The notes: generated by a model not told the origin, from the sequence alone. 32,000 nucleotides of DNA from Erysipelothrix larvae (GCF_001545095.1 NZ_CP013213.1:1470001-1502000); one strand, 5' to 3'; shown: positions 5,730 to 27,295, numbered from the stretch's first letter. Program-made: numbers and translations.

Positions 5730-7103
5730 ATGCAACAACCGTTAGTCTTTGATTATGATAAAGAACCCTCGCGCGATATCTTGTGCATCGATTGCAAGAG
5801 CTTTTATGCGTCGTGTGAGGCGGTTTCTCGTGGGTTAAATCCACTGACTGTGAAACTTGTTGTGATGAGTTATCCCAGTGATAATAAAAACGAACGTGGA
5901 AGTGGCCTCATCCTTGCATCCAGTCCTGCAGCCAAGAAAGCCTACAACATCTCTAATGTAAGTAGAGCCCGTGATCTGCCCTTCCCTTATCCTGAAGATT
6001 TGATTATTGCACCGCCTCGCATGAACTATTACATGCAAATCAACAAGCAAATCAACAACATCTATCGGACCTTTGTCGATGACTCAAACATTGAAGTGTA
6101 TTCGGTTGATGAGACCTTCCTAGATGTCACAGGTTCCTTAAAATACTTTAAGTGCAACAATGCACGTGAACTTGCGAAACTCATTCAAATTAAGGTCTAT
6201 AAGGAAACTGGTATTTATACAACTGTGGGTATTGGGGATAATCCCCTCTTAGCTAAACTTGCTTTAGATAATGAAGCCAAACATACCAAGGACTTCAAAG
6301 CAGAATGGCGTTATGAAGATGTGCCCGATAAGATTTGGAACATTAAATCACTCACCGATTGTTGGGGGATTGGTCGACGTACTGAAAAACGCCTCAATAA
6401 CTTAGGCATCACATCGATGTATGAATTAGCGCATACCGACTATTATAAGATTAAGAAAAGCATGGGAATCTTAGGCGCACAGCTTTATGCACATGCTTGG
6501 GGCATTGATCGTACCTTCTTAGGTGAACCCTATGCTCCCAAATCAGAATCGATTGGAAACTCACAAGTCCTCAATCGTGACTATTATACGAAAGAAGAAA
6601 TTGAAATTGTAATTCGTGAAATGAGCGACCAAGTCGCAACACGCTTACGCAAAGAAAATAAGCTCTGTAAAAGTGTCAGCCTTTGGGTAGGTTATTCCTT
6701 GAGTTATTTAGATGACGAAGGGAAACGGGGGTTTGCGAAGCAAGTTAAAGTTGAGGCAACAAACAGCAGTAAGAAAATTTACCAAGCTTGCCTCTCAATT
6801 TTCAATAAGTACTATGATGTCCAGGTCGTTCGTAATATTGGAATCAACTGTACAAAGTTAGAATCTCCGTTTCAAGAGCAGCTGAACTTGTTTGAATCTG
6901 TTGAGGATAAAGATAAAGAACATCACCTTGATGAAGTGGTGGATACGATACGAAGTAAATACGGATTCACTAAACTTGTGTATACCAGTAGCCTATTAAG
7001 AGGTGGACGTGCCATTGCCCGTAGTAAACTGGTGGGTGGTCATGCAGGTGGTATGAGTGGACTGGATGAGAAAGGAGACGCAGATGAGAAAAAGAAGCCC
7101 TAA
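5730..7103 (+). CDS. Y-family translesion DNA polymerase (ImpB/MucB/SamB; UmuC/UvrX/YqjW-like), intact copy, 457 aa
   Basis: The N-terminus ILCIDCKSFYASCEAV, the catalytic SVDETFLDVT, and GIGDNPLLAKLALD with the WGIGRRTEKRL helix-hairpin-helix are hallmarks of Y-family polymerases. A GAAGGGAGG RBS precedes the ATG. A YolD-like gene follows, as in the B. subtilis uvrX-yolD and yqjW-yqzH pairs. Confidence 0.9.
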   Translation: MQQPLVFDYDKEPSRDILCIDCKSFYASCEAVSRGLNPLTVKLVVMSYPSDNKNERGSGLILASSPAAKKAYNISNVSRARDLPFPYPEDLIIAPPRMNYYMQINKQINNIYRTFVDDSNIEVYSVDETFLDVTGSLKYFKCNNARELAKLIQIKVYKETGIYTTVGIGDNPLLAKLALDNEAKHTKDFKAEWRYEDVPDKIWNIKSLTDCWGIGRRTEKRLNNLGITSMYELAHTDYYKIKKSMGILGAQLYAHAWGIDRTFLGEPYAPKSESIGNSQVLNRDYYTKEEIEIVIREMSDQVATRLRKENKLCKSVSLWVGYSLSYLDDEGKRGFAKQVKVEATNSSKKIYQACLSIFNKYYDVQVVRNIGINCTKLESPFQEQLNLFESVEDKDKEHHLDEVVDTIRSKYGFTKLVYTSSLLRGGRAIARSKLVGGHAGGMSGLDEKGDADEKKKP

Positions 7104-7430
7104 ATTTTTTGTGGATTATAATGACTATCATGATCGTCCCTTTGGCTTAAAATGGGGCACTGCATTTGCGTTAGCAGAACTGGTGAGTGTGATTGACACA
7201 AACAAGAAAGATGCCAAAAAGGAAGTCTATGAATTTCCTGAGATGAGTCGGGAAGAAATCGATCACGTTCTTCAACATGCTTTCCTAAAATCAAAAAAGG
7301 TATCCATTCAAATGAACATACGAGACCATGATGATCATCTTATCGAGAACGTAATTGGAAAATTCGAAGGGTTTTCAGACTCTGAATTCTTGTATATTGA
7401 TGGTCAAGAACTCGCTTGGGAACTCATTCG
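6714..7430. repeat. Left copy of a 717-bp imperfect direct repeat (3' third of the polymerase gene plus most of yolD)
   Basis: It aligns base-for-base with 26579-27295 at a constant offset of 19865 and no indels. I counted about 27 mismatches by eye (about 96 percent identity). Similarity stops abruptly on both sides. Confidence 0.9.
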
Positions 7431-7452: not shown

Positions 7453-7472
7453 TATTGATGTTTTAAGCATTT

Positions 7473-8846: not shown

Positions 8847-8859
8847 GGACTCACCTCCA

Positions 8860-9294: not shown

Positions 9295-9331
9295 ATTATC
9301 TATTCTCTGTAGGAAACTAATGTCACCTGTT

Positions 9332-11770: not shown

Positions 11771-11791
11771 TCTAGTTTTACCTTTCTTTAA

Positions 11792-14010: not shown

Positions 14011-15736
14011 GATTGATCTCCTCTTTATTTATACCTGTCAATTTATTTCTATGTTTATGTTGCATTAAACTTACCAAAGCATTTGGATTCAGGAGATTCT
14101 TTGAATATTCAATGAAATAATCTATGTGCTCATCGGGCAACATGCCAAACTCACTCATTGAACCAATGAAGCCACCTCCATCACCGAATATTATATCCTC
14201 AATTAACAAGAAAAACGATTTCTCATTTACATCAAATTGACGAAACCCTTCTTTTTGATATAATGACCTAAAGATATTTATTTGTTCATTATTATAAAGA
14301 TTTTTAATCAGATTTATCTCACTTCTCGGTGATAAACTGTGTTTGTGATCATCAATGTTTTCGCTATCACATTCTACGATGAAATCAACTGCATTCTCAA
14401 AGCAAGTAGATTTTAGTCCATTGAAGGATTTAAACACAACAAGTTCTAATTCTCTATATGGCTCAAATGGTTCGATGTCAAACTTAATTTGCTCATTTTC
14501 CAGCGTTAATTTCTTTACCCATTTTACCTCCATGCTGTTTTGATAATTCACACCTAGTTTTTTTACATTTTCGCTATATACTAAAGCTGTTACGTTGGGA
14601 TGCTTTTCAGAACGGAAATCTTGTGCCCTTTCCTGTGTCATTATTACTTGGTTACCAACTATGGTTTCAACTGGTGTACTCAACTGCTCCTTTACTTTCT
14701 TGTTAAGAATCTGGTCAACATTTCCAAATTGAATCGAGGTATCAAATGCTTCAATATCAATGCTTTTTACCTTACTTGGAATTGAAATAAAATTGAGACA
14801 TTCACAGCCAATAAACGCACTTCGATAAATGTGAGAGAGTGATGTTGGAAGGATTACAGTGTGAAGACTTTTACATTCTTGAAATGCTCTATATCCAATC
14901 TCATGGACATTATCTGGTATTATAATCTCTTTTAGAGAAGAACATTGATAAAAAGAAGCAAAGCAAATATATTCTAATTGATTCCCTAATTCAATTTGAA
15001 TCAGTGCACTACATAGGGCAAATGAATAATCGCTGATTGTTTTGACATTATCTGGTATCTTGATTTCCTCGATCGATTCACAATAATAAAATAAATGATC
15101 ACTAATAACTTCAAGTTTGTTAGGCAATGTGACATTCTTAAGAGATTTACAATCTCTAAATACTGAATTACCAATTTCAATAACAGAATCCGGTATAATA
15201 ATTTCAGTAAGTGAAACACAACTCGAAAAAGCAAGTTTCGAAATAGTTTCTAGTGATTGCGGAAGGATAACCTCTCGCAACTTAACACAATTAAGACATA
15301 CCTCTACTCCTAATTGTACGAGGCCATCTTCGAACATTACCGACTCCAGACTTTGACAATTCGAAAAAGTTCTATATAATGAACTGACGCCTCCAGGTAC
15401 CACTATCTCCTTTAATCCAGATTCAGCAAATGCAGAACTACCAATTTCCAGTAGACTCTCTGATAAATAAATTTGCTCCAAATTACTACACTGATAAAAA
15501 GCTTTATTTTCGATGTGCGTAACTGTATCAGGAAGTATAACCTCCTTAACTAAAGCATTCTCAAAAGCATTTTTACATATATGTGTCACGGGGTATCCAT
15601 CTATCACTTCAGGAACGATAACTTTTTCTACTACTTTTTTTGGATCATTACCTTCAACGTAACGTTGAATTCTTATGGCCTCTCTATAATAACTATACGC
15701 AAAACTCCCATGACTGGTAATCTCAATTTTCGACAT
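13997..15736 (-). CDS. BspA-type leucine-rich repeat (LRR_5) protein without signal peptide, about 579 aa
   Basis: At least 10 consecutive units are present, such as ILPDTVTHIENKAFYQCSNLEQIYL, IIPDSVIEIGNSVFRDCKSLKNVTLP and IIPDNVHEIGYRAFQECKSLHTVILP. The start is set at ATG 15736 (MSKIEITSHG), with a GAGGA RBS 8 nt upstream, rather than the track start at 15763. The C-terminal approximately 110 aa aligns with the pre-repeat C-terminal region of the 603-aa LRR protein. Confidence 0.88.
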   Translation of the reverse strand: MSKIEITSHGSFAYSYYREAIRIQRYVEGNDPKKVVEKVIVPEVIDGYPVTHICKNAFENALVKEVILPDTVTHIENKAFYQCSNLEQIYLSESLLEIGSSAFAESGLKEIVVPGGVSSLYRTFSNCQSLESVMFEDGLVQLGVEVCLNCVKLREVILPQSLETISKLAFSSCVSLTEIIIPDSVIEIGNSVFRDCKSLKNVTLPNKLEVISDHLFYYCESIEEIKIPDNVKTISDYSFALCSALIQIELGNQLEYICFASFYQCSSLKEIIIPDNVHEIGYRAFQECKSLHTVILPTSLSHIYRSAFIGCECLNFISIPSKVKSIDIEAFDTSIQFGNVDQILNKKVKEQLSTPVETIVGNQVIMTQERAQDFRSEKHPNVTALVYSENVKKLGVNYQNSMEVKWVKKLTLENEQIKFDIEPFEPYRELELVVFKSFNGLKSTCFENAVDFIVECDSENIDDHKHSLSPRSEINLIKNLYNNEQINIFRSLYQKEGFRQFDVNEKSFFLLIEDIIFGDGGGFIGSMSEFGMLPDEHIDYFIEYSKNLLNPNALVSLMQHKHRNKLTGINKEEINHGNV

Positions 15737-16397
15737 ATTTCCCATCCTCTTCTCATGAAGCAATGACTTGCAAAAAAAGTGTCAATTCTATAACTTTCAA
15801 CTCTTGTAAGCGCTTAACTCAGTGTATTTATTAAACCCTCTATTATCATTCAAATTCAATTATTACATCAATTAATAACACTTTTTAAACAAAACACAGT
15901 TCATTCCATAATCATAGTTTTGCATATAATTTAACGAAAGTCAATTAATTATTTTTATAACTAAACGGTGTCATTGATTCATAAAATAATAATTATTTAC
16001 TAGGTTTTACACGTCCTTTACTCTAAAAATATACACCTTAATAACGATATACGAATGGAGCGATTATAGTGTCAATATAATTTATTCCACATGTATTTAT
16101 CGTTCATTATTTACCTAATTGCTTATATTATTTATGTATTATCCAAAAATATGTAAACAAACCTTCTCATACTAAAAACAACAAAATATCGATATGAGTC
16201 ATATTACATATAATTTTTATCCTGAAGAATCAATTTGGTTTCTGTATATACAAAAGTTTTCTTGCTTCCTAAGCCTAATATGGAATATTTATTGCATTAT
16301 TTATGTTTGTTAAAGAAACAGTACCACAAACGTTTACCACCCGACTGTTGTATTTGTTAATCTAAAAGTGGGCCAATTGTCAATTGAAAACAGTTGC

Positions 16398-18122
16398 TTA
16401 CTGAACCTTACTTACAATAGTATTCTTTGCATTATAAGCGGTTGCAAATGATTTCATTATGTTTTTAGAAATATTAACATTGGATCTTTCAAGTAAGGCT
16501 TTGCACGATTCTTCAGTCATATTTGCGATACATGTTAACTTAAATCTCGCCCTTGAAGCACCTACATACATAATTTGTTCCTTATTATTTGAGAACATCG
16601 AATCGTCCAAATCAACCAGTATTATAGCGTCCGCTTCAAGTCCCTTAAACTTCCTACACGTTGTGAACTTAAATTTGAATTTCTTATAATGATAAACACC
16701 GTTTGAACAATGATCACTCAAATTACTCGTTTGTTCAGTTTTACACGTTAAAATCACGATATCAGTGTAGTCTTGTTCCAATAAGTCCTTAATTGCCGCA
16801 TTGGTTGCATCTATCGTATCGGTTATAGCATTACAAAAAAACATTTCCGGAACATCACCTTGAATTGAATCTTCAAACAATTGAATTTTATATTTTCTCC
16901 CGAGCAGCCTCAACGATGTAATCGCGACATTTTCAGTGTTCCTACAGTTTCTGTACAAAGTCAATTTACAATCAGCATCCTCGATATATGATGGCACATT
17001 ACTAGACTGAATCATTTGATTTTTATCATAGAATAAATAGAAGGTTCCTTCCTCGTCATCACTTTCTAGCACATTCATTTTCAGACGATCAATGATTGCG
17101 ACTTCCTCAATAGAATCTCTCCCAAAATCTTGGCCTTCATCGATAACGATATGCCTATAGGGAAAATTCATGTTTGAATAACAATCCTCGAGCACCGTCT
17201 TAAATCGCTCATAATCAGGAGTCTTTGTATTGCACATCTTACACGCTAGTCCATCGATAGTATAGAATGAAATATTTGGATCTGAGTACATTTCTTTTAA
17301 ATATTCCTTGAGGTTTAGGTTGTAGCATAAAAACAAAACAGGTTGTCCTTTGCTGGCATGTCTTTTCGCCTTTTCAATCGCAAGAATTGTCTTTCCAGTC
17401 CCTGCTAGCCCATTTATTATTGCACTTCTCTGTTCATCGAGATAGTTCAAAAGAGCGACCTGTTCCCTGAGCAATCTTTTGAAAACCAATTGATGCCGTT
17501 CTTTCTTAAAACCCGCTAGAGAAACCAAATTAAAATTTGGTGCAAGAATATTATTAATGATTAATTTGGCCTCTTTATCATTTAAGGATGTTTCTTTTCC
17601 ATTCGGTAATTTGATTTTATAAATCCTACTAATATCTTTTTCAATGTTACCAAATGAGTCACTTGTCAGCATCAACGATTTATCAGTATCTGAAGGTAAT
17701 GCGACTGTATCAAATGCCCTCAATGGCACATCTGGAAACCAAACTGCATGCAAAAATTTACATCGATTAACGATTTGGTCGTATTTCTTATTTCGCATTA
17801 ATTCGAGTAGTTTCCACTTATTTTTACTGGCTTGTTGAAATGGTCCGTCGTGACTCATTAGCCTACCACTACCATACCGCCATTCGCCTTTAGAATACTC
17901 TACCCTTCCTGCTTTAGCTTCAATGCATAAAATTCCTTTCTTAGGATGAAATATAACAAAATCTGTCTCACTTTCGTGTATTGTATTATTCACAACTTCA
18001 AGAATAGAAAAGGAATGAAATACATAGTAATCATCAGATAAGCGCTCAAGCTCAGAAAACATCATTCCCTCTCTACTCGAATACGAAAATTCTTTTGGCT
18101 TATTTGGAAACATGATTGCCAT
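16398..18122 (-). CDS. NERD-domain nuclease-like N-terminus fused to a superfamily-1 (UvrD/AAA_19-like) helicase, 574 aa
   Basis: The N-terminal YYVFHSFSI...SETDFVIFHPKKGILCIEAKAG is a NERD / PD-(D/E)xK-type D...E-x-K. Walker A GLAGTGKT and Walker B HIVIDEGQDF are present. The C-terminal FKGLEADAIILVDL and MYVGASRARFKL match the UvrD_C_2-type signature. An AGGTGG RBS lies 8 nt before ATG 18122. The start overlaps the upstream gene by 23 nt. Confidence 0.88.
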   Translation of the reverse strand: MAIMFPNKPKEFSYSSREGMMFSELERLSDDYYVFHSFSILEVVNNTIHESETDFVIFHPKKGILCIEAKAGRVEYSKGEWRYGSGRLMSHDGPFQQASKNKWKLLELMRNKKYDQIVNRCKFLHAVWFPDVPLRAFDTVALPSDTDKSLMLTSDSFGNIEKDISRIYKIKLPNGKETSLNDKEAKLIINNILAPNFNLVSLAGFKKERHQLVFKRLLREQVALLNYLDEQRSAIINGLAGTGKTILAIEKAKRHASKGQPVLFLCYNLNLKEYLKEMYSDPNISFYTIDGLACKMCNTKTPDYERFKTVLEDCYSNMNFPYRHIVIDEGQDFGRDSIEEVAIIDRLKMNVLESDDEEGTFYLFYDKNQMIQSSNVPSYIEDADCKLTLYRNCRNTENVAITSLRLLGRKYKIQLFEDSIQGDVPEMFFCNAITDTIDATNAAIKDLLEQDYTDIVILTCKTEQTSNLSDHCSNGVYHYKKFKFKFTTCRKFKGLEADAIILVDLDDSMFSNNKEQIMYVGASRARFKLTCIANMTEESCKALLERSNVNISKNIMKSFATAYNAKNTIVSKVQ

Positions 18123-21100
18123 CAGTCAAACCACCTATTCTACTTAAGAATTCAAAAACATCAAATTCTTCTGCTGTGCAATAACAACTCCAATCCGTTT
18201 GTTCAGATGCTCTTCTATACTCATCCTCATTTTCATTTAAAAATAAGAGCACTTTTTCATCTTTCCATGCAAGATTTGAAAAATAGGCTTCACCCGTTTC
18301 TCTACACATTAAAGTTGTTCTATAATACGGTCTGGATATAATTATGTTGCTATTTTCTTTAAGTAGGTTGATCATACTCAACTCGTTCTCATCATAGCAA
18401 TCTTCATAAATATTATTCCAAATTTCTTCTGCAGTCTCTTCACCTGGATTTCGACCATCAGAACCAAACGTTAAGTTGGTCATTCTTTTAGATTCCTTAC
18501 TTAATGCGTTATTGACTAACTGCACATTAAACTCAGCGTCATTTAGTAATTGATTAATTGAATCAATTGCAAACTTTCTTTTCAATTTCGAATGGTAGGT
18601 TTGATTATAATAGCTTCTTAAGCAACTATAACACGATGTGTCTTCATCACAACATTGTTGCGATACTTTATCCAAAGCGGCCTTTAAAGAGCTAATCACT
18701 GCCTCTTTGCTTAACAATCTTTTTACATGACCCGCTCCACCAGGAACATTATCAAAGACAATAATATCGTAACTTTTTTGTTCTAGATTCAGTTCTAGAA
18801 CCCCATCAAGATCGTTACGCTCAATTTCAAGTGCATAACTCATTCCTTCTAGAAATGCATATAAGAACGAAAGCGCTCTATGGTTGCTTTCTGTCTCATT
18901 AGAATGTAATGATGGAATTGTTAAGCGTGCAACATCGGTTTGGAATTTGTGTCCCAACCTTAATCGTATTAATTTTTCGTTAAAACAATCGTATTCTCTG
19001 AAATTCTTATGTTTCTTTGAGATAAATGGTAAGCCACTACCTATCGTAATTTTCTCACTATATCCACATTTATCACACATATAAAATCCTGATCGATTCA
19101 GAACTAACAGTTCGTCGTTTGTGCTCGTCTGAACGGTTATTGCTGTACCAATGTACTCATTCATTTTGTCAAAGATTCCGCCACCTAGGTAAGAAACTTC
19201 GCCCACATAGGATCTTTTAGGTTTCAAATGTGGACTGTCACTTGATTTATTTGCCTTAAACCCAAGCGTGGGTTGAATAAAGTATTCATGCGTTCCTGTT
19301 CTTATTTCTCCACCACAGTATTTACACTTAATACTCTCTGTCTTTCGTGTGTAAACATTTATTTTATGACATTGAGAACACGTTTCAAAATAGTTTTTGA
19401 ACATTTCTGTTGTTTTCGGTAACGTAATGTATTTCGATACATACTTGTTTTTCATGACAAGCACCTCAGAGTCCGGTGCATACTCGGATATTGCGATTTT
19501 AAGGTCTCGCGTAAGGTCAATATCATTTTTGCGTTTTTCATCATTTTCTAAGATCTGTAAATCAACTAAATCAACAGGAAAACCATATTTTGGAATTACA
19601 CAATACTTCGATAACATTTCTATCACGGACTGATTATGTAGTTTTTCTTCTTGTCCCTTAAAATAATCAGCTTGTTCATAATCATTTTCAGCTTTTGAAG
19701 CATTCTCTGCGTCTTTAAACTCAACAGCCATTTCTTTAATTGAATCAATAAAGTGAGTCAACTTCTCATCATTATAATCAATTTCAGCCAGCCATTTGAA
19801 TTTATGGAAATTACGATATCGTGTCTCCGGCACCACCTTTTCATCAATGTATCTTCGGAGATCAGAAGGTTCACTCTTTAAATAATCGATGAAGACTTCT
19901 GATCCATTATTAAAAATAAAGGAATCCGTTGATATGAAATAATCAGGATGCTGTCTAAAGAAGAAACCAAGGCAGGATGCTAAGAGATGTCGACTGATTA
20001 TTTTCTCATTATCTACCTTAAAATATGGTGGGTTGATTACTCCAGAAATCATTTTCTCAGGGGCTGCGAAATAGGTATAGTCATGTGAGCTCGAACTACA
20101 GTAAGTTAAAATATATGCAGAACTATCACTTCTTCGACCTGCTCTACCCGCTCTTTGAACATAATTGGCAGGCGTTGGGGGAACATTTCGCATAAATACC
20201 GTCTCCAAGTCACCAATGTCAATTCCCATTTCAAAAGTCGTTGAACAGCTAAGTATATTTATCTTCTTATCAACAAATCTCTTTTGAAATTCTTTACTTA
20301 CCTTTCGATCAAGCTGTGCGGTGTGCTCTTGGATTACCATTCTTTCTATTTTCTTACTCTTATACTCTTTTCGGTAATAATTTTCTGAAAGTGCATCATC
20401 TGGGTCAATCTTATATAACTTGCCTTTACATTTGTCAGAAGGACATGCATTGTTTAAATTGAAAGGTGTTAGTTTAGAGCATTTATTGCACCTGTAGAAT
20501 GGTGATTCAACATAGTTTTTTATTTTAAACTTGCTGGCATCAATCTGATATGCATCTTCTTTATTGTGCTTAATAAAAAGGGCATCTTGGGAGTCTATCG
20601 AATCAGAGACAGAAAGCACATTAAAGACCATATCTAAAATCTTTACAGCCCCCTCTGTATTACAATTACAAGCTTTTTTTACATATCGAACAATCTTATT
20701 CTCTTCGCCTACGATCGGTAGCAAGCTTCTTATATTTAGCTTATTCTTTTGCGCCTTCAGCATCACAAAATTATTAAACCGTCGATACTCCAGATATTTT
20801 TCCTTTTCTTCTTGTGAAAGTGTTGACTGTACATACTTTATCGCTGGTGTTGTCTTAAATACAGTTGCCACTACTTGTATCAGCGTATTAAGTTCATTCT
20901 TTGTATTTATATTGTACTGGCCTAATTCATCTTTAATAATATCATCATCTATCTCGTCAAAAATGCTAGAAGTGTCTAATTCAAAATAGTATAAGCCAAG
21001 ACCTTCACCATCATGTGCACCATCGACTTTTAGCAAATCAATCAACAAGCTCACCCATGCATTTTTTTCTGATGATAAGTCATTGTCGAATAAGCGCTGG

Positions 21101-23238
21101 CTTTCAATCTTATCTTCCAGTTTTGAAACAAGTTGGTTTACCGACATTTCCTTATAATTCGTCTCTTCTAAAATGTTCCAAATCAGTCGTTTTCTCAGCA
21201 TACGCGTGTGATTTGAATCAACAAACGCAGCAAAGAAACTAGCCTGTTGTCTACTATCAGAAAAAGCCAAATACTGTTTAACTTTCGGTTTAACAACCGG
21301 TATCTGTTTGATGGGTTCTGTGCTTATTCTTAATGAAAACTTTCTTCTTTTTTCATGCTTTGCATCATCCCCATCAAGCGTCTCATAAAGGATTTGTGAA
21401 ATTATTGCAGTACCTTCATCTTTACCAACATTAAGTAACTTTACGACTCCCGAAGTTCCTTTATGACCACAATATAGGCATTGACTAATATTATTAAAAC
21501 TGCTTGCTTCCTTTTTGTCATCGTTCCTGATTTTATAAACACTAAACTTGCACAGAGAATCACAATCACATTTTTTTGCATTGAGATTGCCCGTCCTATG
21601 AATTGATCCACACTTGTTGCAAAGCGTATACTCTTCCAATATAGTCTCATCAATGGTTGAGTCAATATCTTCGTTTACCATCTCTTCTAACATAAAGTAG
21701 TCTACTTTTGCACGTTCATTATCACCATAGTTTTCATAAACATCTACTTCTTGATTTTGATATAAATAGTCTAAGCCATCCAGTCGATTTTGTTGAATCT
21801 TACCAACAATGTACGTAGAGTCACAGTATCGACAATTACCAATTTCAAAAGTTTTTTTATTATCAATCGCGTTTGTTTTAGTAAGACTCAGTTTCTGGTC
21901 AGAACCAAATGTTATAAATGCACCCGATAAAGGACGAACAAAGGAATGATACTTTAGATCAAAGAGATTTACTCCATTTTTGCTGGCACCGTTTATTAAG
22001 TCAATGAGGGCGAGCAACTCAGCCTCTTCCAACTCTCTTAACTCGAATTTTAGCGATGCATAATTTTTACTCTTATCTTTCAGACAATTATAAATTGTAT
22101 GTGTATTCTCATCATTTGATAACAAATCATATAAGATTTCCTCATTTTTTGATGCGTGTGTTTCCTTGTATTTCTCACAAATATCAACAAGAGGAATATC
22201 ACTTGCTAAACGCTGTTTCAACTCCAAATAGTCGCTACCTTTAACCTTATATAAGGACGCATGAGAATCAAACTTAATTCGTTTAGAAAAAACAATATCT
22301 GATGTATTAAAAGAACATGACGTTAAGTTCTTCGCAAAGTTAACAATATCTCCTTCACTTTTTCCTTGTGTTCCAAGTGTAGCACTTGTTAAGATGAATC
22401 GTGGTTTCTTTTCAGAGTATGCAGTCAACCTTCGCATTAATAAAGAAATCTCAATTCCTAAAGACCCATTATAAGAATGCGCTTCATCAAGAACTACAAA
22501 CTTCCAATTTGCTAATCGATTTGGATCAAAAATCGCATAATCATTTGGTCGTATAAGAAGATACTCAAGCATTGAGTAGTTTGTAAACAACAAATGAGGT
22601 GGATTTTCCCTAATTTCAGTTCTGGAGATCAACTCATTTACAGGGATTTCAACACCAATTTCTTTTGCAAGTTTCTTTCGATCTTGATCGGTAGTTTCCT
22701 CTGGTGTATCCCCGGTAAAAAAGCCATATGTTATGTTTGGACATGATGAAAGTATTTTCCGAATTCGATCAATTTGATCATTGACTAAAGCATTCATCGG
22801 GTATAAGAATATTGATCGGATACCTATTTCTCTATTTCCATTTTCATAATCCGACAAAATCTCATTCAAGATTGGATAAAGAAAACACTCTGTTTTACCA
22901 GATCCAGTCCCGGTCGTTACAACAGCACTATTTCCTGAACTAATGATGTTTAGTGCTTCTTCTTGATGTTTGTAAAGTGGTCTATCTATTTCAATATTAT
23001 TAAGTTGCCCAAAAGACTTACAAAGCTTTCCTTCTGCTATGAGTTGATTTATTGTCTTTCCTCGCTCAAATGGCAGATCCAAACTAACAAAAGGACCCTT
23101 AAACAGTTCTTCCTTCTCAAGTTGCCTATTAAACAATTCCTGCAGTGAGGAATTACCAAACTTAAAGGACGACTTTAGATATTCCTTGTATTTATGATCT
23201 ATATATAACGATTTTTCTATTGGGTTCAGCGCTTTCAT
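18100..23238 (-). CDS. Giant DEAD/DEAH-box helicase fused to a DUF1998 (MrfA-type zinc) domain, 1712 aa; DruE-like architecture
   Basis: Motif I is TTGTGSGKT (about aa 108-116) and motif II is VLDEAHSY (249-256), with TSAT at 283-286. The C-lobe motifs appear only at aa 970-1036 (QEHTAQL, STTFEMGIDIGD, YVQRAGRAGRR). The DUF1998 hallmarks FDNVPGGAGHV and CCDEDTSCYSCL lie at aa 1495-1540. An AAAGGTGGG RBS precedes the ATG. An ATGA overlap joins it to the upstream gene. Confidence 0.9.
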   Translation of the reverse strand: MKALNPIEKSLYIDHKYKEYLKSSFKFGNSSLQELFNRQLEKEELFKGPFVSLDLPFERGKTINQLIAEGKLCKSFGQLNNIEIDRPLYKHQEEALNIISSGNSAVVTTGTGSGKTECFLYPILNEILSDYENGNREIGIRSIFLYPMNALVNDQIDRIRKILSSCPNITYGFFTGDTPEETTDQDRKKLAKEIGVEIPVNELISRTEIRENPPHLLFTNYSMLEYLLIRPNDYAIFDPNRLANWKFVVLDEAHSYNGSLGIEISLLMRRLTAYSEKKPRFILTSATLGTQGKSEGDIVNFAKNLTSCSFNTSDIVFSKRIKFDSHASLYKVKGSDYLELKQRLASDIPLVDICEKYKETHASKNEEILYDLLSNDENTHTIYNCLKDKSKNYASLKFELRELEEAELLALIDLINGASKNGVNLFDLKYHSFVRPLSGAFITFGSDQKLSLTKTNAIDNKKTFEIGNCRYCDSTYIVGKIQQNRLDGLDYLYQNQEVDVYENYGDNERAKVDYFMLEEMVNEDIDSTIDETILEEYTLCNKCGSIHRTGNLNAKKCDCDSLCKFSVYKIRNDDKKEASSFNNISQCLYCGHKGTSGVVKLLNVGKDEGTAIISQILYETLDGDDAKHEKRRKFSLRISTEPIKQIPVVKPKVKQYLAFSDSRQQASFFAAFVDSNHTRMLRKRLIWNILEETNYKEMSVNQLVSKLEDKIESQRLFDNDLSSEKNAWVSLLIDLLKVDGAHDGEGLGLYYFELDTSSIFDEIDDDIIKDELGQYNINTKNELNTLIQVVATVFKTTPAIKYVQSTLSQEEKEKYLEYRRFNNFVMLKAQKNKLNIRSLLPIVGEENKIVRYVKKACNCNTEGAVKILDMVFNVLSVSDSIDSQDALFIKHNKEDAYQIDASKFKIKNYVESPFYRCNKCSKLTPFNLNNACPSDKCKGKLYKIDPDDALSENYYRKEYKSKKIERMVIQEHTAQLDRKVSKEFQKRFVDKKINILSCSTTFEMGIDIGDLETVFMRNVPPTPANYVQRAGRAGRRSDSSAYILTYCSSSSHDYTYFAAPEKMISGVINPPYFKVDNEKIISRHLLASCLGFFFRQHPDYFISTDSFIFNNGSEVFIDYLKSEPSDLRRYIDEKVVPETRYRNFHKFKWLAEIDYNDEKLTHFIDSIKEMAVEFKDAENASKAENDYEQADYFKGQEEKLHNQSVIEMLSKYCVIPKYGFPVDLVDLQILENDEKRKNDIDLTRDLKIAISEYAPDSEVLVMKNKYVSKYITLPKTTEMFKNYFETCSQCHKINVYTRKTESIKCKYCGGEIRTGTHEYFIQPTLGFKANKSSDSPHLKPKRSYVGEVSYLGGGIFDKMNEYIGTAITVQTSTNDELLVLNRSGFYMCDKCGYSEKITIGSGLPFISKKHKNFREYDCFNEKLIRLRLGHKFQTDVARLTIPSLHSNETESNHRALSFLYAFLEGMSYALEIERNDLDGVLELNLEQKSYDIIVFDNVPGGAGHVKRLLSKEAVISSLKAALDKVSQQCCDEDTSCYSCLRSYYNQTYHSKLKRKFAIDSINQLLNDAEFNVQLVNNALSKESKRMTNLTFGSDGRNPGEETAEEIWNNIYEDCYDENELSMINLLKENSNIIISRPYYRTTLMCRETGEAYFSNLAWKDEKVLLFLNENEDEYRRASEQTDWSCYCTAEEFDVFEFLSRIGGLTDGNHVSK

Positions 23239-25988
23239 ATTTTCCCACCTTTCTCTAAATCAATAATATATGAAAATATGTCATTCAAAGTGTTATCATC
23301 CAATGTATTTGCGACCCTTCTACGTTTTAAGTCTAATAGAAGACCATCCCCTTCGTTTGTGATTGCAAATTCAACGCAATTGTTTTCAATCCCGCTACAT
23401 ATCTCAATACTAACCGGATTTACTTGCGATAATTTAAACTCACTGAATTCTGTCTTCACAAGTAAATCCCCGATATAACAATCATCATTAATTTTCTCCT
23501 TTATCTCAATAAAAGTCTTATTTATGTTCATTTTACGTCTGACTAATCCGTTACTTGTACCTTGATCAAAATACACTTCTTTGACTTTATAATACCTACC
23601 AACTATATCATTACGAGTGTAAAATCTGCGTTTCATTTCACACATCACTCGATTTCTTGATGTTCCAAACCATAACCCTTTTTCTCTTTCAAACAATATA
23701 ATCGTATAGCTTTCAAAAGACTTGAGATTGCTGACCGTTTGAGACTCACCGCTCAATAATTTCTCACTTCTAAATATCTCGATCCCTTCTTCATTCTTAA
23801 TATTAAAAAACACATGTCCTTGACCATAATAATTTGGTGTTACCTTAAGTTTATTGTTAATTGGGTCAAAATCAAGATCAAGATCTGAACTTTTCAATAT
23901 ACACTTGTTGTAGCAATACAATACATTTGCGATTTTTCCATCTACTAAGAATAGTATCTTTACGAAATCATAATTCGCCCTGTATGTCACAAGAAAGCTA
24001 ACATCTATACTTTGATAAGGCGTTGTTTTCTTCATATCTTTAGGATTATCAAGTTCAATCCCTTTATCTGAATGGATCATATATTGATCATAATGATTGC
24101 CAAAGATATCTAATTTTCCTCCTTGTGTAATTTCATCAATCACGATTTCATCATCAAATGAGCACCAATCACTGCCATTCAATCTGTACATATTAAATCC
24201 TAGTGGGACTTCGAAATAGTACATCTCATTCTTATATTTGATACTGAGAATATCTTCAATAAATTCAAGTTGCTTTTGATACTGAATGAGGGGTTCCTTC
24301 AATATATCGCTGGTCAATTGAATTAAACTTCCATGATCGTTCTTAATATCTACCACTAGATTAGAATCCATTACAAACTGAGTTTGAACTACTCTTTTTC
24401 TCACTTCGTTAAACACTTCAAATAGTGACACAGTGTACATATCTGAACCAAAATTACTCAGGTCAACGAGATAACGGTTAATCCCAGAACTCGGCTTAAT
24501 TTCACAGATATCCTTTGTTAATGGAATATGCTTATTATTAATTTGAAACATCAATTTATCTTTATCATATTCTGATTCAAACATAAAATAGCGAATACTT
24601 TTGTAAATCGGTATTTTCTTTTTATTGTCTTGCCTTACCAAAAAATGATCTTGGTACAATTCTCCGATAACACCCGGTTCTGTGTGTGAAAGAAAGATAA
24701 AAAATTCATCATCAATTAGAAATGAATCACCAATTTCTACTGTTTTTACAGCCAAACTATAATATTGATTTACAGTGTTAAAATTTAGCATAGAATGCTT
24801 CGTATTTTTTCGACTACAAAAAATTGTAGTTCCAGAATAATCAGTATGATTCTTAATTTCTTTTCCATCTTCTGTAAACACGAGAATCTTACGATTCAAT
24901 TTGTCTAGACTATCGTAAATAACTTCTTCACCGCATACGAGTTGATAACTTATCTCGCCCAAAGGATCATCAAGATGAATTGCACTAGGATATAACTGAT
25001 ATCCACCAATAATCTCACGAATATCGAAGCGATCATCTTGTAAATAAAGATGATCACCATTATATACCTTGATCATCAGTTGTGTATAGTCATAGGTATT
25101 TTTCACTTTATGGAATGGCGGAACTAAGAATACCGCTTGATTATCATAAGTAAATTTGCAATCCCACTTATTCCTTAAGTCTAAACTTTGTGCTCTCCGA
25201 TTGCTTCTTATGCTGTCTCTATCCATTTTTGTACACCAATTCAAATAAGCTTCTTTGAAGTAGGTCATCGAAATTGCAATACTCTTGTTCCAAATATAAG
25301 AATCAATGAGCTCAACGACAGTTTTGCTAAAATCAATTAAACTATTTAAACCATTTTCACTGCTTATTAATCGCTTCGTTGACACAATTAGCTTATATGT
25401 TTTCTTGGTTAAACTAATCGAAACAGTATCACCATCAGATAGCATCGATTCACGAATTCCTTCATAGACAAATCTGAATTCTTCTTCCACATTATTTGGT
25501 ATATCAAAATCAAAGTTAGTTACATAAATGTCGTATATAAAATCAAAAAAATCAATCAAGAATTTTTGGGGAACAATAGAATGAGAGAGGGCAACACCAA
25601 TATACAAAGAAGTATTTTTTATTTCCTTTTGCGTTTTATATTGCTTCAATATCGTTCTAATCAATGACTCAATCTTTTGATCAGAAAAATTATCATAAAG
25701 TCTTGAATACTGATCCTGAACATGATCATAAAATTTACCATCATAATTTAACATCTGTATTAACGACAATGACATTAGTACAATATCGCCATTTTTAACA
25801 TGTTCCCCAACATAAGTAGATAATGTATAAATAAGGCTAGATTCTGCGCTTTCATGAATATATTGAACGATTTTTGGGAAATCCATCAACGTAATAAGGT
25901 CCATACCAATATTGTGACCTGACTCAAGTTTACGTTTTATATCTTGTATTATTGAATCAAAATGATCTCTCTCTTCTATTTTTAACAT
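23235..25988 (-). CDS. Large hypothetical protein, about 917 aa, first gene of the helicase operon (positional equivalent of DruH; homology unverified)
   Basis: It is an uninterrupted ORF in which I can recognise no catalytic or nucleotide-binding motif. The start is set at ATG 25988 (MLKIEERDHF), just after GGGAGGA. The track start at 26033 is a TTG without an RBS and would sit in the putative promoter. Its stop overlaps the next start (ATGA at 23235-23238). Confidence 0.85.
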   Translation of the reverse strand: MLKIEERDHFDSIIQDIKRKLESGHNIGMDLITLMDFPKIVQYIHESAESSLIYTLSTYVGEHVKNGDIVLMSLSLIQMLNYDGKFYDHVQDQYSRLYDNFSDQKIESLIRTILKQYKTQKEIKNTSLYIGVALSHSIVPQKFLIDFFDFIYDIYVTNFDFDIPNNVEEEFRFVYEGIRESMLSDGDTVSISLTKKTYKLIVSTKRLISSENGLNSLIDFSKTVVELIDSYIWNKSIAISMTYFKEAYLNWCTKMDRDSIRSNRRAQSLDLRNKWDCKFTYDNQAVFLVPPFHKVKNTYDYTQLMIKVYNGDHLYLQDDRFDIREIIGGYQLYPSAIHLDDPLGEISYQLVCGEEVIYDSLDKLNRKILVFTEDGKEIKNHTDYSGTTIFCSRKNTKHSMLNFNTVNQYYSLAVKTVEIGDSFLIDDEFFIFLSHTEPGVIGELYQDHFLVRQDNKKKIPIYKSIRYFMFESEYDKDKLMFQINNKHIPLTKDICEIKPSSGINRYLVDLSNFGSDMYTVSLFEVFNEVRKRVVQTQFVMDSNLVVDIKNDHGSLIQLTSDILKEPLIQYQKQLEFIEDILSIKYKNEMYYFEVPLGFNMYRLNGSDWCSFDDEIVIDEITQGGKLDIFGNHYDQYMIHSDKGIELDNPKDMKKTTPYQSIDVSFLVTYRANYDFVKILFLVDGKIANVLYCYNKCILKSSDLDLDFDPINNKLKVTPNYYGQGHVFFNIKNEEGIEIFRSEKLLSGESQTVSNLKSFESYTIILFEREKGLWFGTSRNRVMCEMKRRFYTRNDIVGRYYKVKEVYFDQGTSNGLVRRKMNINKTFIEIKEKINDDCYIGDLLVKTEFSEFKLSQVNPVSIEICSGIENNCVEFAITNEGDGLLLDLKRRRVANTLDDNTLNDIFSYIIDLEKGGKI

Positions 25989-26017
25989 AAGTCCTCCCAG
26001 GTGTATTAAGCGCTTAC

Positions 26018-26047
26018 AATATAAAACTCTCAATTTTGTCTTGTTAA
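26018..26047 (-). promoter_or_regulatory. Candidate sigma-A promoter for the three-gene helicase operon (TTAACA, 18-nt spacer, TATATT)
   Basis: On the minus strand the -35 TTAACA is at 26047-26042 and the -10 TATATT is at 26023-26018, 30 nt upstream of ATG 25988. This is motif match only, in an AT-rich context where such matches are common. Confidence 0.3.
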
Positions 26048-26578
26048 TATCCGATTTGATTAATTATGAATTCTTCTAATTATCATTATTATAAGCTTAA
26101 AGACATTAAATAGAAAGATCAAACAAAGATTATATTTAACTTTTCCACTCCCTGTTGCTATCGCATCACTTGTAAGCATTGCGGCTATACCAGGATGATA
26201 AGTTGATGATTCTTTGTTTTCCCTAACACGAGAGGAGAAAGTTTTATTGACAATAACGACAAATGTGTTCTTCTATTTCATTGCCCAACAAAAATTCACT
26301 GCGTATACAGTACTTTAGAGTCTGTAATATTATGCTTAACTCTATACAAAAAAGTCAAACTAAAATCTAGCAATTCTGTTTGTTTCTTCAAAAATATTCT
26401 TTGACTGCTCTTTCATTTTAACTCTCCTAGATATTTATTCTTCCCACCCATAGGAAAAGCTCATCTTTTTTGTAATTCCCGTTTTTATATTTCGAGTGTC
26501 TACTTTGAAGTGAACATATCACTAATGAAATACAAGTCTAGAATATCTGTTAACACTAGTTATTAAATCGAGGTTGAA

Positions 26579-26968
26579 GACGAAGGGAAACGGTGGTTTG
26601 CGAAACAGGTTAAAGTTGAGGCAACAAACAGCAGTAAGAAGATTTACCAAGCTTGCCTCTCAATTTTCAATAAGTACTATGATGTCCAGGTCGTTCGTAA
26701 TATTGGAATCACCTGTACAAAGTTAGAATCTCCGTTTCAAGAGCAGCTGAACTTGTTTGAATTCGTTGAGGATAAAGATAAAGAACATCACCTTGATGAA
26801 GTGGTGGATACGATACGAAGTAAATACGGATTCACTAAACTTGTGTATACCAGCAGCCTTTTAAGAGGCGGCCGTGCCATTGCCCGTAGTAAACTGGTGG
26901 GTGGTCATGCAGGTGGTATGAGTGGACTGGATGAGAAAGGAGACGCAGATGAGAAAAAGAACCCCTAA
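26579..26968 (+). pseudogene. 5'-truncated fragment of a Y-family polymerase gene (last ~129 codons only)
   Basis: It translates in frame to DEGKRWFAKQVKVEATNSSKKIYQAC...GGHAGGMSGLDEKGDADEKKNP, which matches residues 329-457 of the intact copy with 4 amino-acid changes. It has no N-terminal catalytic domain, no start codon and no RBS. The track ORF 26753-26968 only starts at an internal TTG. Confidence 0.88.
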
Positions 26969-27295
26969 AATATTTGTGGATTATAATGACTATCATGATC
27001 GTCACTTTGGCTTAAAATGGGGTACTGCATTTGCATTGGCGGAACTGGTGAGTGTGATTGACACAAACAAGAAAGATGCAAAAAAGGAAGTCCATGAACT
27101 TCCTGAGATGAGTCGTGAAGAAATCGATCACGTGCTTCAACATGCTTTCTTAAAATCAAAGAAGGTATCCATTCAAATGAACATACGTGACCATGATGAT
27201 CATCTTATCGAGAACGTAATTGGAAAATTCGAAGGGTTTTCAGACTCTGAATTCTTGTATATTGATGGTCAAGAACTCGCTTGGGAACTCATTCG
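26579..27295. repeat. Right copy of the 717-bp imperfect direct repeat
   Basis: It is colinear with 6714-7430 (offset 19865, no indels, about 27 mismatches by eye). Upstream of 26579 the sequence is unrelated, and an in-frame TAA sits at about 26564-26566. Confidence 0.9.

What the first reader, a model, noticed from the sequence alone, without database searches (positions are those of the whole stretch)
16398..26047. Translationally coupled three-gene operon: 917-aa unknown protein, 1712-aa DEAH/DUF1998 giant helicase and NERD-SF1 helicase (Druantia type III-like core plus an extra nuclease-helicase)
Seen in the sequence:
- Three large co-oriented genes are fused by overlaps. ATGA at 23235-23238 joins genes 1 and 2, and a 23-nt overlap at 18100-18122 (with its own AGGTGG RBS) joins genes 2 and 3.
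- A single candidate promoter precedes them and a 634-bp gap follows them.
- Gene 2 combines helicase motifs I, II and VI with the DUF1998 hallmarks (PGGAG and a CxxC cluster).
- Gene 3 has a NERD-type D...E-x-K module plus Walker A/B and a UvrD-C-like tail.
- I recognise no motif in gene 1.

Established knowledge:
- Type III Druantia is a two-gene system: a large unknown protein DruH followed by DruE, a very large helicase carrying DUF1998 (PF09369).
- NERD/nuclease plus SF1 helicase fusions can act as stand-alone anti-phage proteins, as in the Nhi type.

Inference: this operon is either a Druantia-III relative that has recruited a dedicated nuclease-helicase effector, or an undescribed three-component system built on a DruE-like motor. 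No methyltransferase or PLD gene is adjacent, which argues against DISARM. The operon sits in an island that carries other defence-type genes.
Basis: partly seen in the sequence, partly recalled or inferred. Interest (0 to 1): 0.86.

Follow-up and report, generated by a model that had tools for sequence, protein, structure and literature searches.

The report
Druantia-like helicase with plug-in nuclease-helicase
This is a three-gene anti-phage-type operon in which a giant Druantia-like DNA helicase carries a small extra tail domain found only when a nuclease-helicase gene follows it, and the same tail-plus-nuclease pair also occurs on DISARM-type helicases, suggesting a portable effector module that has not been described.

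Summary
Three translationally coupled minus-strand genes lie in Erysipelothrix larvae: gene 1 (25988-23235, 917 aa), gene 2 (23238-18100, 1712 aa) and gene 3 (18122-16398, 574 aa).

- Gene 2 is a DruE-like DEAH/MZB helicase without PLD domains. It belongs to a Firmicutes lineage roughly equidistant from type III-A DruE, a compact proteobacterial DruE and an ARMADA II helicase.
- Gene 1 is not DruH by sequence (no PADLOC DruH hit; hhalign probability 0.07%). It has a DruH-like build: a helical N-domain plus a beta-sandwich array.
- Gene 3 is a NERD-SF1 helicase with intact nuclease and ATPase motifs.

The triplet is conserved (12 of 35 species-level loci); the rest are doublets. The last ~120 residues of DruE (18118-18477) form a domain present in every triplet and no doublet, with at least 6 joint gains or losses. 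In 69 of 70 gene 3-centred metagenomic loci, the ORF ending 0-14 nt upstream carries this tail, whether it is DruE-like (38) or DrmB-like (30). The tail co-diverges with gene 3, not with its own helicase (partial rho 0.79 vs 0.21).

Best reading: one system whose motor recruits a nuclease-helicase effector through a dedicated docking domain. I judge it a new variant of a known kind.

The parts
26018..26047 (-). Promoter-like match (TTAACA-18-TATATT) about 30 nt upstream of the gene 1 ATG
   Evidence: It is a consensus match only: such matches are not enriched over shuffles (61 vs 53 +/- 8).
23235..25988 (-). Gene 1: 917-aa partner protein (AOC36_06920), in the position DruH occupies in Druantia III. 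No known family.
   Evidence: ATG with a GGGAGG RBS. No Pfam, NCBIfam or PADLOC hit. Family of 1580 representatives. Almost always directly followed by a DruE homologue. Co-diverges with the DruE core, r = 0.93.
25215..25988 (-). Gene 1 N-terminal all-helical domain (residues 1-258), the best-conserved part
   Evidence: AF2 model, mean pLDDT 85.5. Mean top-residue frequency 0.66 vs 0.53 for the beta array.
23238..25157 (-). Gene 1 array of roughly six beta-sandwich (Ig/Fn3-like) domains (residues 278-917), more variable
   Evidence: Foldseek matches Ig/Fn3 arrays with E down to 1.8e-6.
18100..23238 (-). Gene 2: 1712-aa DruE-like SF2 DEAH helicase with an MZB (DUF1998) zinc module and no PLD domain
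   Evidence: PADLOC DruE1 7e-182 and DruE3 1.3e-156. Pfam DEAD 90-289, Helicase_C 966-1036, MZB 1460-1540. Motif coordinates.
18118..18477 (-). C-terminal tail domain of gene 2 (residues ~1588-1707): predicted non-catalytic adaptor that occurs only when a gene 3 homologue follows
   Evidence: Present in 16 of 16 triplets and 0 of 25 doublets. AF2 pLDDT 85.8, pTM 0.78, topology a-a-b-b-b-a-b-a. The HMM hits 93 of 8787 ORF segments, always at the extreme C-terminus. Co-diverges with gene 3, rho 0.86.
16398..18122 (-). Gene 3: 574-aa NERD (PD-(D/E)xK) nuclease fused to an SF1 UvrD-like helicase (AOC36_06910)
   Evidence: PADLOC RTasNERD-Hel 1.8e-71 over the full length. Pfam UvrD_C_2. Homologues carry Pfam NERD. 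Catalytic motifs conserved in 35 homologues.
17778..18074 (-). NERD nuclease domain of gene 3 (residues ~17-115; D54, E68, K70)
16443..17465 (-). SF1 helicase core of gene 3 (Walker A 241-245, Walker B 328-332, motif VI 520-525)
6711..7430 (+). Left copy of a 720-bp direct repeat (3' end of intact dinB plus the downstream 131-aa ORF)
26576..27295 (+). Right copy of the 720-bp direct repeat (~96% identical; displaced dinB 3' fragment). With the left copy it brackets the 19.1-kb segment holding the operon.

Best explanation
The locus is one three-component defence-type system built on a YprA-family (DruE-like) DNA helicase.

- Gene 1 is the lineage-specific partner, analogous to DruH. It has a conserved helical N-domain plus a variable array of Ig-like domains. 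By analogy it acts as sensor and/or DNA-end processor.
- Gene 2 is the motor: an SF2 DEAH helicase with an MZB module, expected by analogy to translocate 3'-5'. Unlike type III-A DruE, it has no PLD nuclease.
- Gene 2 instead ends in a ~120-residue non-catalytic domain. I propose this docks the product of gene 3, an active NERD nuclease fused to an SF1 helicase, which supplies DNA degradation in trans.
- The tail domain and the NERD-helicase gene form a portable two-part module. It has been plugged onto the MZB-bearing C-terminus of at least two kinds of motor: DruE-like proteins and the DISARM subunit DrmB.

Shown here: gene order and coupling, conservation of the triplet, strict tail/gene 3 co-occurrence with repeated joint gain or loss, tail/gene 3 co-divergence, and intact catalytic motifs.

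Inferred: physical docking, gene 3 as the effector, DNA of invaders as the target, and anti-phage function.
For: Gene 2 identity:
- DruE-like by PADLOC and Pfam.
- No PLD: the DruE3 profile match stops at position 1682 of 2055.

Conservation of the triplet:
- 12 of 35 species-level loci found through gene 1 are triplets, with gene 2-gene 3 junctions of -13 to +3 nt there and -23 nt in the window.
- Three independently chosen gene 3 homologues all sit in the same triplet, with unrelated flanks.
- About 100 of the top 120 DruE homologue clusters are the long form.

Tail and gene 3 linkage:
- The tail is present in 16 of 16 triplets and 0 of 25 doublets.
- Doublets nested among triplets keep only a linker stub.
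- Parsimony needs 6-9 state changes across 100 bootstrap trees.
- In the gene 3-centred metagenome survey, 69 of 70 loci have a co-directional ORF ending -8 to +14 nt from gene 3, and all 69 tails match the tail HMM.
- Carriers are 38 DruE-like, 30 DrmB-like (24 with DrmA upstream) and 5 truncated.
- A non-iterated HMM built from DruE tails alone hits 22 of 27 DrmB tails; 0 of 1380 shuffled tails are hit.
- The HMM hits only the extreme C-terminus, once per locus, and never in doublets or in proteobacterial Druantia/ARMADA references.
- Tail vs gene 3 divergence: rho 0.86 (partial 0.79). Core vs gene 3: 0.57 (partial 0.21).
- The tail's conserved positions are hydrophobic or aromatic, with no catalytic constellation.

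Gene 3 activity: the NERD D-ExK triad and the SF1 motifs are conserved.

Literature:
- The PLD domain is the DruE nuclease in type III-A (10.64898/2026.05.13.724313).
- Compact DruE lacks it (PMC12458937).
- ARMADA II has an analogous nuclease-domain-plus-SF1-helicase gene directly after its YprA helicase.
Against: - No experiment and no complex prediction was possible, so docking is an inference.
- Tail/gene 3 co-divergence could partly reflect physical linkage of adjacent DNA that is exchanged together, rather than a protein interface.
- Doublets without tail or gene 3 are the majority (23 of 35), so gene 3 is not needed for whatever the core does.
- One study found the DruE PLD domains dispensable (10.64898/2026.05.13.724758), so a nuclease may not be the essential output.
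- One locus (L038) has a distant gene 3-like protein after a DrmB without the tail.
- The tail's fold assignment is not significant (best Foldseek E = 0.12).
- Gene 1 has no detectable homology to DruH, so mechanistic transfer from DruH is by analogy only.
Confidence: 0.72

Rival explanations
1. Two independent systems that happen to be neighbours: a two-gene Druantia-like pair (genes 1-2) and a stand-alone NERD-helicase defence protein of the Nhi kind (gene 3).
For: Two-gene versions are common and presumably functional. NERD/nuclease-helicase fusions can act alone (Nhi; weak PADLOC Nhi hit of 31.5 bits). Defence genes cluster in islands.
Against: Gene 3 overlaps gene 2 by 23 nt, and the junction is within -13 to +14 nt in every homologous locus. 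A DruE tail domain exists only when gene 3 follows, across at least 6 independent transitions. 69 of 70 gene 3-centred loci have a tail-bearing ORF directly upstream. The tail co-diverges with gene 3.
Confidence: 0.07
2. The tail plus NERD-helicase is not the effector. It is instead a regulatory or back-up layer: for example a guard that fires when the motor is inhibited by a phage, or a toxin held inactive by the tail (addiction-like cassette).
For: The module is optional and mobile between motors. A non-catalytic tail could sequester as easily as recruit. Doublets work without it. PLD domains were dispensable in one type III-A study.
Against: There is no antitoxin-like small gene. The tail is covalently part of the motor rather than a separate inhibitor. 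Analogous positions in related systems hold effector nucleases: PLD in DruE III-A, DrmC in DISARM, ArmD in ARMADA II.
Confidence: 0.13
3. A housekeeping DNA-repair module of the MrfA/YprA type rather than an immune system.
For: The MZB/DUF1998 helicase core is shared with MrfA. A dinB gene and a dinB fragment lie nearby.
Against: Full-length PADLOC DruE matches of 400-600 bits. The protein is 1712 aa with Druantia/ARMADA-type insertions, whereas the NCBIfam YprA-type model is 742 positions long. There is no MrfB partner. Distribution is patchy, with unrelated flanks and carriage on small elements with a serine recombinase, ParB and TnpV. The operon lies in a repeat-bracketed 19-kb insert.
Confidence: 0.03

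Closest known systems
Druantia type III (DruH-DruE), especially the compact 'III-B / III-like' form (Doron 2018, from my own knowledge; Bell et al. 2025, PMC12458937; 2026 preprints)
   Same: A large partner protein with no annotated domains, translationally coupled to a very large DEAH/MZB helicase. Like III-B, the DruE is compact and lacks PLD domains. The partner has a helical N-domain plus Ig-like domains, as described for DruH.
   Different: The partner is not in the YjiT/STY4851 DruH family by HMM or profile-profile tests, and it lacks the C-terminal helical domain. The helicase is equidistant from III-A, a compact proteobacterial DruE and an ARMADA II helicase, and it scores best on PADLOC's DruE1 model. 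A third gene and a dedicated tail domain are present.
ARMADA type II (ArmA-D; Bell et al. 2025)
   Same: A YprA-family helicase immediately followed by an SF1 UvrD/GajB-like helicase that carries an N-terminal nuclease-type domain (ArmD: RelE-like plus GajB-like).
   Different: No BrxHII-like helicase or PglX methyltransferase here. Gene 3 has a NERD DNase-type domain, not RelE, and shares only Walker motifs with ArmD. The tail HMM does not hit the ARMADA II helicase.
DISARM (DrmA/DrmB/DrmC plus methyltransferase)
   Same: The same helicase superfamily. 30 metagenomic loci have DrmA, then DrmB with the same tail, then a gene 3 homologue. The NERD-helicase sits where DISARM normally has the PLD nuclease DrmC.
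   Different: In the window the helicase and MZB module are one polypeptide. No methyltransferase and no PLD gene are present.
UG34 (class 1 UG/Abi) reverse-transcriptase-associated NERD-helicase, the source of PADLOC model RTasNERD-Hel (Mestre et al. 2022, PMC9226505)
   Same: Best sequence model for gene 3: 240 bits over the full length. Same NERD-plus-SF1 architecture.
   Different: No reverse transcriptase in the window or in any surveyed triplet. Here the partner is an MZB helicase with a dedicated tail.
TALON (Bell et al. 2025)
   Same: A YprA-family helicase operon that includes a NERD-type nuclease.
   Different: TALON is rare and mostly in Chloroflexota. It has an ARMADA-like helicase, TPR-CSD and TBP genes, and the paper describes a NERD endonuclease without mentioning a fused helicase. 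None of those genes is here.
Nhi (stand-alone nuclease-helicase immunity)
   Same: A nuclease fused to an SF1 helicase.
   Different: Only a weak match (31.5 bits). Gene 3 is never seen alone in the surveys.

Membership tests
Druantia (any type) | DruE: a very large SF2 DEAH helicase with an MZB/DUF1998 module | tested here: met
   PADLOC DruE1 7e-182, DruE3 1.3e-156, DruE2 and DruE4 also hit. Pfam DEAD, Helicase_C and MZB. Motifs located.
Druantia type III | An upstream partner belonging to the DruH (YjiT / STY4851-ECs_5259) family | tested here: not met
   No PADLOC DruH hit for gene 1, for 27 homologues or for 9 distant relatives. No NCBIfam hit. BLASTP E = 3.7. hhalign probability 0.06-0.07%. 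Positive control: Klebsiella DruH hits 10 DruH models.
Druantia type III | DruH-like architecture (helical N-domain, about six Ig-like domains, helical C-domain) | tested here: inconclusive
   The AF2 model has the helical N-domain and the beta-sandwich array but no helical C-domain. Foldseek hits are generic Ig/Fn3 arrays. No DruH structure is in the PDB copy, and afdb50 was unavailable.
Druantia type III-A | Two C-terminal PLD-like domains on DruE | tested here: not met
   1712 aa. The DruE3 profile match ends at 1682 of 2055, and there is no PLD Pfam hit. The C-terminus is instead a ~120-aa a/b domain.
Druantia type III | DruE falls inside the type III clade | tested here: inconclusive
   Summed BLAST bits: 334 to III-A, 269 to the compact Azotobacter DruE, 287 to the ARMADA II helicase. 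The two proteobacterial DruEs score about 900 to each other. The best PADLOC model is DruE1. No full phylogeny with type I/II references was possible.
Druantia type I / II | DruA-D, or DruM/F/G, genes upstream of DruE | tested here: not met
   Only gene 1 precedes DruE, and the atp operon lies upstream.
DISARM | Split DrmA/DrmB, a methyltransferase, and a PLD DrmC | tested here: not met
   Single-polypeptide helicase. No methyltransferase or PLD is adjacent. DrmA scores are only 46-51 bits.
ARMADA II | BrxHII-like helicase, PglX-like methyltransferase, YprA helicase and RelE-GajB ArmD | tested here: not met
   No BrxHII or PglX genes. Gene 3 vs ArmD shows only Walker motifs.
UG34 DRT-associated NERD-helicase (PADLOC RTasNERD-Hel) | Sequence match to the model | tested here: met
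   1.8e-71, 240 bits, residues 1-530 on profile positions 1-508 of 519.
UG34 DRT-associated NERD-helicase (PADLOC RTasNERD-Hel) | An adjacent UG34 reverse transcriptase | tested here: not met
   No RT domain in any window ORF scanned. In triplet contexts the neighbours are DruE and unrelated genes.
Nhi | A stand-alone nuclease-helicase with a strong Nhi model match | tested here: not met
   Nhi 31.5 bits only. Always downstream of a tail-bearing MZB protein.
MrfA/YprA repair helicases | A helicase of about 750 aa, alone or with the MrfB exonuclease, in a conserved housekeeping context | tested here: not met
   1712 aa. NCBIfam TIGR03817 scores 121 bits against a cut-off of 874. Distribution is patchy and island-borne.
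Anti-phage defence system (functional class) | Protection against phage or plasmid challenge | not testable with these tools
   Requires cloning and challenge experiments.

The most novel reading that the evidence does not exclude
The ~120-residue tail plus the NERD-SF1 helicase is a self-contained, horizontally exchangeable 'plug-in effector' cassette. It docks onto the MZB end of any YprA-family immune motor (several DruE-like clades and DISARM DrmB). If so, it reveals a general effector-recruitment interface for this helicase superfamily. It would also explain how nuclease-less compact DruE systems destroy invader DNA, and it would define unrecognised three-gene subtypes of both Druantia-like and DISARM-like systems that are abundant in gut Firmicutes.
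Probability: 0.5. Interest if true: 0.8.

Novelty: new variant of a known kind. Interest (0 to 1): 0.68.

Why it matters
- Druantia III was being dissected mechanistically in 2025-2026, but only in its proteobacterial III-A form. There the nuclease is a PLD domain fused to DruE, and its necessity is disputed between groups.
- This locus represents a large Firmicutes lineage (1580 partner-protein representatives) that current DruH models do not detect. PADLOC-style detection would therefore probably see only an orphan DruE.
- The locus shows a different solution to the effector problem: a nuclease-helicase encoded in trans and linked to the motor by a small dedicated domain. The same domain-plus-gene pair occurs on DISARM DrmB.
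- This gives a concrete, testable interface: tail deletion, tail swaps between DruE and DrmB, and NERD or Walker mutants. It also gives a simple genomic marker (the tail HMM) for finding such systems.
- It is a clear case of modular effector exchange between immune systems.

Tried and rejected
- Gene 1 as DruH: rejected at the sequence level by PADLOC, NCBIfam, BLASTP, hhalign against one DruH and against a six-member DruH profile, and by a PADLOC scan of distant family members.
- A structural test against DruH could not be done. No DruH is in the PDB copy and afdb50 was unavailable.
- Gene 3 as an ArmD orthologue: rejected. No solved relative by sequence.
- Promoter/terminator scan: uninformative. 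Rfam: nothing between 15000 and 27600.
- Triplet as a single inherited clade: rejected by the tree and bootstraps.
- Gene 1-like partner in the divergent DruE clade (L073): rejected.
- Bell et al. supplementary Table S1 is truncated in the held copy, so I could not check whether this lineage was catalogued.
- PDB sequence searches of two genes in the DISARM-type locus L096 (the ORF downstream of the gene 3 homologue and the ORF upstream of DrmA) gave nothing.

Full report
**Source and anatomy**

The window is chromosomal DNA of Erysipelothrix larvae. Gene 1 is AOC36_06920 and gene 3 is AOC36_06910. Three minus-strand ORFs are present exactly as reported:
- gene 1: 25988-23235, 917 aa from the ATG behind a GGGAGG RBS
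- gene 2: 23238-18100, 1712 aa
- gene 3: 18122-16398, 574 aa

The ATGA overlap at 23235-23238 and the 23-nt overlap at 18100-18122, with AGGTGG upstream, are in the sequence. A 634-bp AT-rich gap follows gene 3.

Upstream lies the atpHAGDC operon, with a terminator-like hairpin after atpC. Downstream are BspA-type LRR and RCC1-like genes.

No Rfam family matches the region.

**What the three proteins are**

Gene 2:
- It matches all PADLOC DruE models: DruE1 606 bits, DruE3 522, DruE2 402, DruE4 354.
- Pfam finds DEAD, Helicase_C and MZB/DUF1998.
- Motifs I, II and VI, PGGAG and eight CxxC are located.
- It lacks the PLD region of type III-A DruE. The DruE3 profile match ends at 1682 of 2055.
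- By BLAST it is equidistant from a Klebsiella III-A DruE (334 bits), a compact Azotobacter DruE (269) and an E. coli ARMADA II helicase (287). The two proteobacterial DruEs score about 900 to each other.
- It therefore represents a separate Firmicutes DruE-like lineage.

Gene 3:
- It matches PADLOC 'RTasNERD-Hel' over its full length (240 bits). Matches to Nhi and GajB are only weak.
- That model derives from a NERD-plus-helicase cluster found beside 7 of 17 UG34 reverse transcriptases (PMC9226505).
- The NERD triad (D54, E68-x-K70), Walker A and B, and motif VI are conserved in 35 homologues.

Gene 1:
- It has no hit in Pfam, NCBIfam or PADLOC.
- Its family has 1580 representatives at 50% identity.

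**Is gene 1 a DruH?**

I retrieved a bona fide DruH: the 'STY4851/ECs_5259 family protein' upstream of a 2104-aa DruE on a Klebsiella plasmid. It scores 2466 bits on PADLOC DruH3 and hits ten DruH models. I also retrieved five diverse DruH proteins from other plasmids.

Every sequence test against these was negative:
- Gene 1 vs DruH by BLASTP: E = 3.7.
- Gene 1 family profile vs one DruH: hhalign probability 0.06%.
- Gene 1 family profile vs the six-member DruH profile: hhalign probability 0.07%.
- 27 family members and 9 distant relatives: no PADLOC DruH hit.

The AlphaFold model (69-sequence alignment, mean pLDDT 85.5) shows a helical N-domain (1-258) followed by roughly six beta-sandwich domains. 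Foldseek returns Ig/Fn3 arrays.

Published DruH has a helical N-domain, six Ig-like domains and a helical C-domain (10.64898/2026.05.13.724313; 10.64898/2026.05.13.724758). In both families the N-domain is the best-conserved part.

So gene 1 is DruH-like in position, size and build, but is not a demonstrable family member. In a more divergent DruE-like clade the upstream partner is an unrelated 574-aa protein. The first gene is therefore the variable element.

**Conservation of the neighbourhood**

- Homologues of gene 1 are almost always directly followed by a DruE homologue, usually with an ATGA-type overlap.
- Among 35 species-level genome loci with a complete DruE, 23 are doublets (DruE 1555-1589 aa, no gene 3).
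- The other 12 are triplets (DruE 1693-1720 aa), with a gene 3 homologue starting -13 to +3 nt from the DruE stop.
- Three widespread gene 3 homologues chosen independently all lie in the same triplet, with unrelated flanks.
- About 100 of the top 120 DruE homologue clusters are the long form.

**The tail domain**

- The length difference between the two DruE forms is a C-terminal linker plus a conserved domain of about 120 residues (window residues ~1588-1707, nt 18118-18477).
- It is present in all 16 non-redundant triplets and in none of the 25 doublets.
- Three doublets nested among triplets retain only the beginning of the linker, which looks like joint deletion.
- On a DruE-core tree, triplets and doublets are interspersed. 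Parsimony requires 6-9 state changes in 100 bootstrap trees, against about 13 for shuffled labels.
- The domain folds confidently (pLDDT 85.8, pTM 0.78) as a-a-b-b-b-a-b-a.
- It has no Pfam match. Foldseek resemblance to Vsr-like and PD-(D/E)xK nuclease domains is non-significant.
- Its conserved positions are hydrophobic or aromatic, with no catalytic constellation.

**Gene 3-centred survey**

A scan of metagenome contigs with the gene 3 family returned 80 loci at 34-57% identity.

- In 69 of the 70 loci with enough upstream sequence, a co-directional ORF ends -8 to +14 nt from the gene 3 start. All 69 tails match the tail HMM: 60 before any iteration, weakest final E = 1.6e-12.
- Across 8,787 ORF segments from all loci, the HMM hits 93. 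There is one hit per locus, always at the extreme C-terminus. It never hits doublets or the proteobacterial Druantia and ARMADA references.
- None of 1,380 shuffled tails is hit.
- Carriers are 38 DruE-like proteins (1660-1908 aa), including a clade only 28-35% identical to gene 2. A further 30 are DrmB-like proteins of 771-806 aa, 24 of them with DrmA directly upstream. Five are truncated.
- An HMM built only from DruE-borne tails hits 22 of 27 DrmB-borne tails, with best E = 6e-20.
- Among 43 full-length DruE-like carriers, tail divergence tracks gene 3 divergence (Spearman 0.86; partial 0.79 given the core). The helicase core tracks gene 3 much less (0.57; partial 0.21 given the tail).
- So the tail evolves with the protein encoded downstream, not with the helicase it is fused to.

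One exception was seen. In L038 a DrmB of 630 aa without the tail precedes a distant (29%) gene 3-like protein. In that locus the gene 1 homologue is fused to a UvrD-like helicase.

**Interpretation**

- In type III-A Druantia, DruE is a 3'-5' helicase acting on ssDNA-containing or forked DNA. Two groups report its C-terminal PLD domain as the nuclease; a third found it dispensable.
- DruH has been described as an ssDNA binder, a 3'-5' exonuclease or a sensor.
- The compact form lacks PLD.
- The present lineage is compact. In about a third of species it has a catalytically intact NERD-SF1 helicase tied to the motor by a dedicated non-catalytic tail.
- The most economical reading is that the tail docks the NERD-helicase, which provides DNA degradation in trans. 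On this reading, tail plus gene is a portable module exchanged among YprA-family motors.
- The closest published parallel is ARMADA II's ArmD, a RelE-GajB fusion encoded directly after the YprA helicase. It is analogous rather than orthologous.
- Docking, effector role and anti-phage activity are inferences.
- Rivals are scored in the report sections: two adjacent systems, a guard or toxin layer, and housekeeping repair.

**Genomic setting**

- A 720-bp direct repeat (6711-7430 and 26576-27295, ~96% identical) consists of the 3' 393 nt of dinB plus most of the downstream 131-aa ORF.
- It brackets a 19.1-kb segment containing the operon, the LRR/RCC1 genes and a DUF234 ATPase that matches the candidate PDC-S27.
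- The right copy is a displaced dinB 3' fragment. The 4% divergence argues against recent in-place duplication.
- No integrase was seen. This supports horizontal acquisition of the segment.

**Novelty**

- Full-text searches found no description of a DruE-NERD-helicase triplet, of a DrmB-NERD-helicase arrangement, or of the tail domain.
- The YprA family survey mentions NERD only for the unrelated TALON systems. Its supplementary table is truncated in the held copy.
- I therefore rate this a new variant of a known kind, with a general and testable feature: the adaptor-effector module.

Noticed in passing
window 6711-7430 and 26576-27295: A 720-bp direct repeat (~96% identical) made of the 3' end of dinB plus the downstream 131-aa ORF. 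It brackets a 19.1-kb segment (7431-26575) that holds the operon. The right copy is a displaced dinB 3' fragment. This looks like an acquired island at the dinB 3' end, but no integrase is visible.
   Followed up: partly
L072-L151 (for example L096 990-8704): About 30 metagenomic loci show a DISARM-type arrangement: DrmA, then a DrmB of ~790 aa carrying the same C-terminal tail domain, then a NERD-SF1 helicase. The helicase occupies the place where DISARM usually has the PLD nuclease DrmC. A C5 methyltransferase was detected in only 4 of the 30.
   Followed up: partly
L038 9491-22677 (Succiniclasticum MAG): A gene 1 homologue fused to a UvrD/GajB-like helicase (1716 aa), followed by DrmA, a DrmB of 630 aa without the tail, a distant NERD-SF1 helicase and a C5 DNA methylase. 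This is the only locus where a gene 3-like protein follows an MZB protein that lacks the tail.
   Followed up: partly
L073 136-8716 and similar loci (L072, L074, L077, L078, L083, L086): A DruE-like clade only 28-35% identical to gene 2 also carries the tail and a close (55-57%) gene 3 homologue. In L073, the one locus where I examined it, the upstream partner is an unrelated 574-aa protein. Gene 3 identity does not follow motor identity, which suggests module exchange.
   Followed up: partly
L002-L004 (Ruminococcus-type contigs), positions ~5770-17960: The two-gene version sits on a small element with a serine recombinase, ParB and TnpV genes. The element is inserted at three different chromosomal contexts, so the doublet is mobile.
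   Followed up: no
L005 / L006 12961-17642 (Lactobacillus sp. ESL0791): The DruE homologue is split into two overlapping ORFs: 955 aa (DEAD) and 605 aa (Helicase_C plus MZB). This is either a DISARM-like split or a frameshift.
   Followed up: no
window 9978-10577, inside ORF 9959-11770: About 25 tandem copies of a 24-nt unit (8-residue repeat) inside the LRR / beta-flower / gp5-C-like surface protein gene.
   Followed up: no
gene 1 homologues P0002-P0120 (alignments A1 and A2): Most homologues are ~1068 aa rather than ~917 aa, because of extra N-terminal sequence containing a duplicated 'L.GII.GI..DG.I...E...L..W' motif. The E. larvae protein lacks this. Eight of 27 homologues give weak PADLOC PDC-S48 hits (1e-4).
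   Followed up: no
window 7473-8846: An ATPase_2 + DUF234 protein matches the PADLOC phage-defence candidate PDC-S27 (192 bits). It lies just inside the left end of the repeat-bracketed segment.
   Followed up: no
L034 1575-4712 (Atopobacter phocae): A gene 1 homologue with no DruE downstream; ABC/OpuA transport genes follow. It is an orphan or a remnant.
   Followed up: no
L071 2037-10556 (Azotobacter chroococcum plasmid pAcX50f): A canonical YjiT-family DruH paired with a compact 1705-aa DruE that ends right after the MZB module, with no PLD and no tail. This may be a proteobacterial III-B example and is useful as a comparator.
   Followed up: partly
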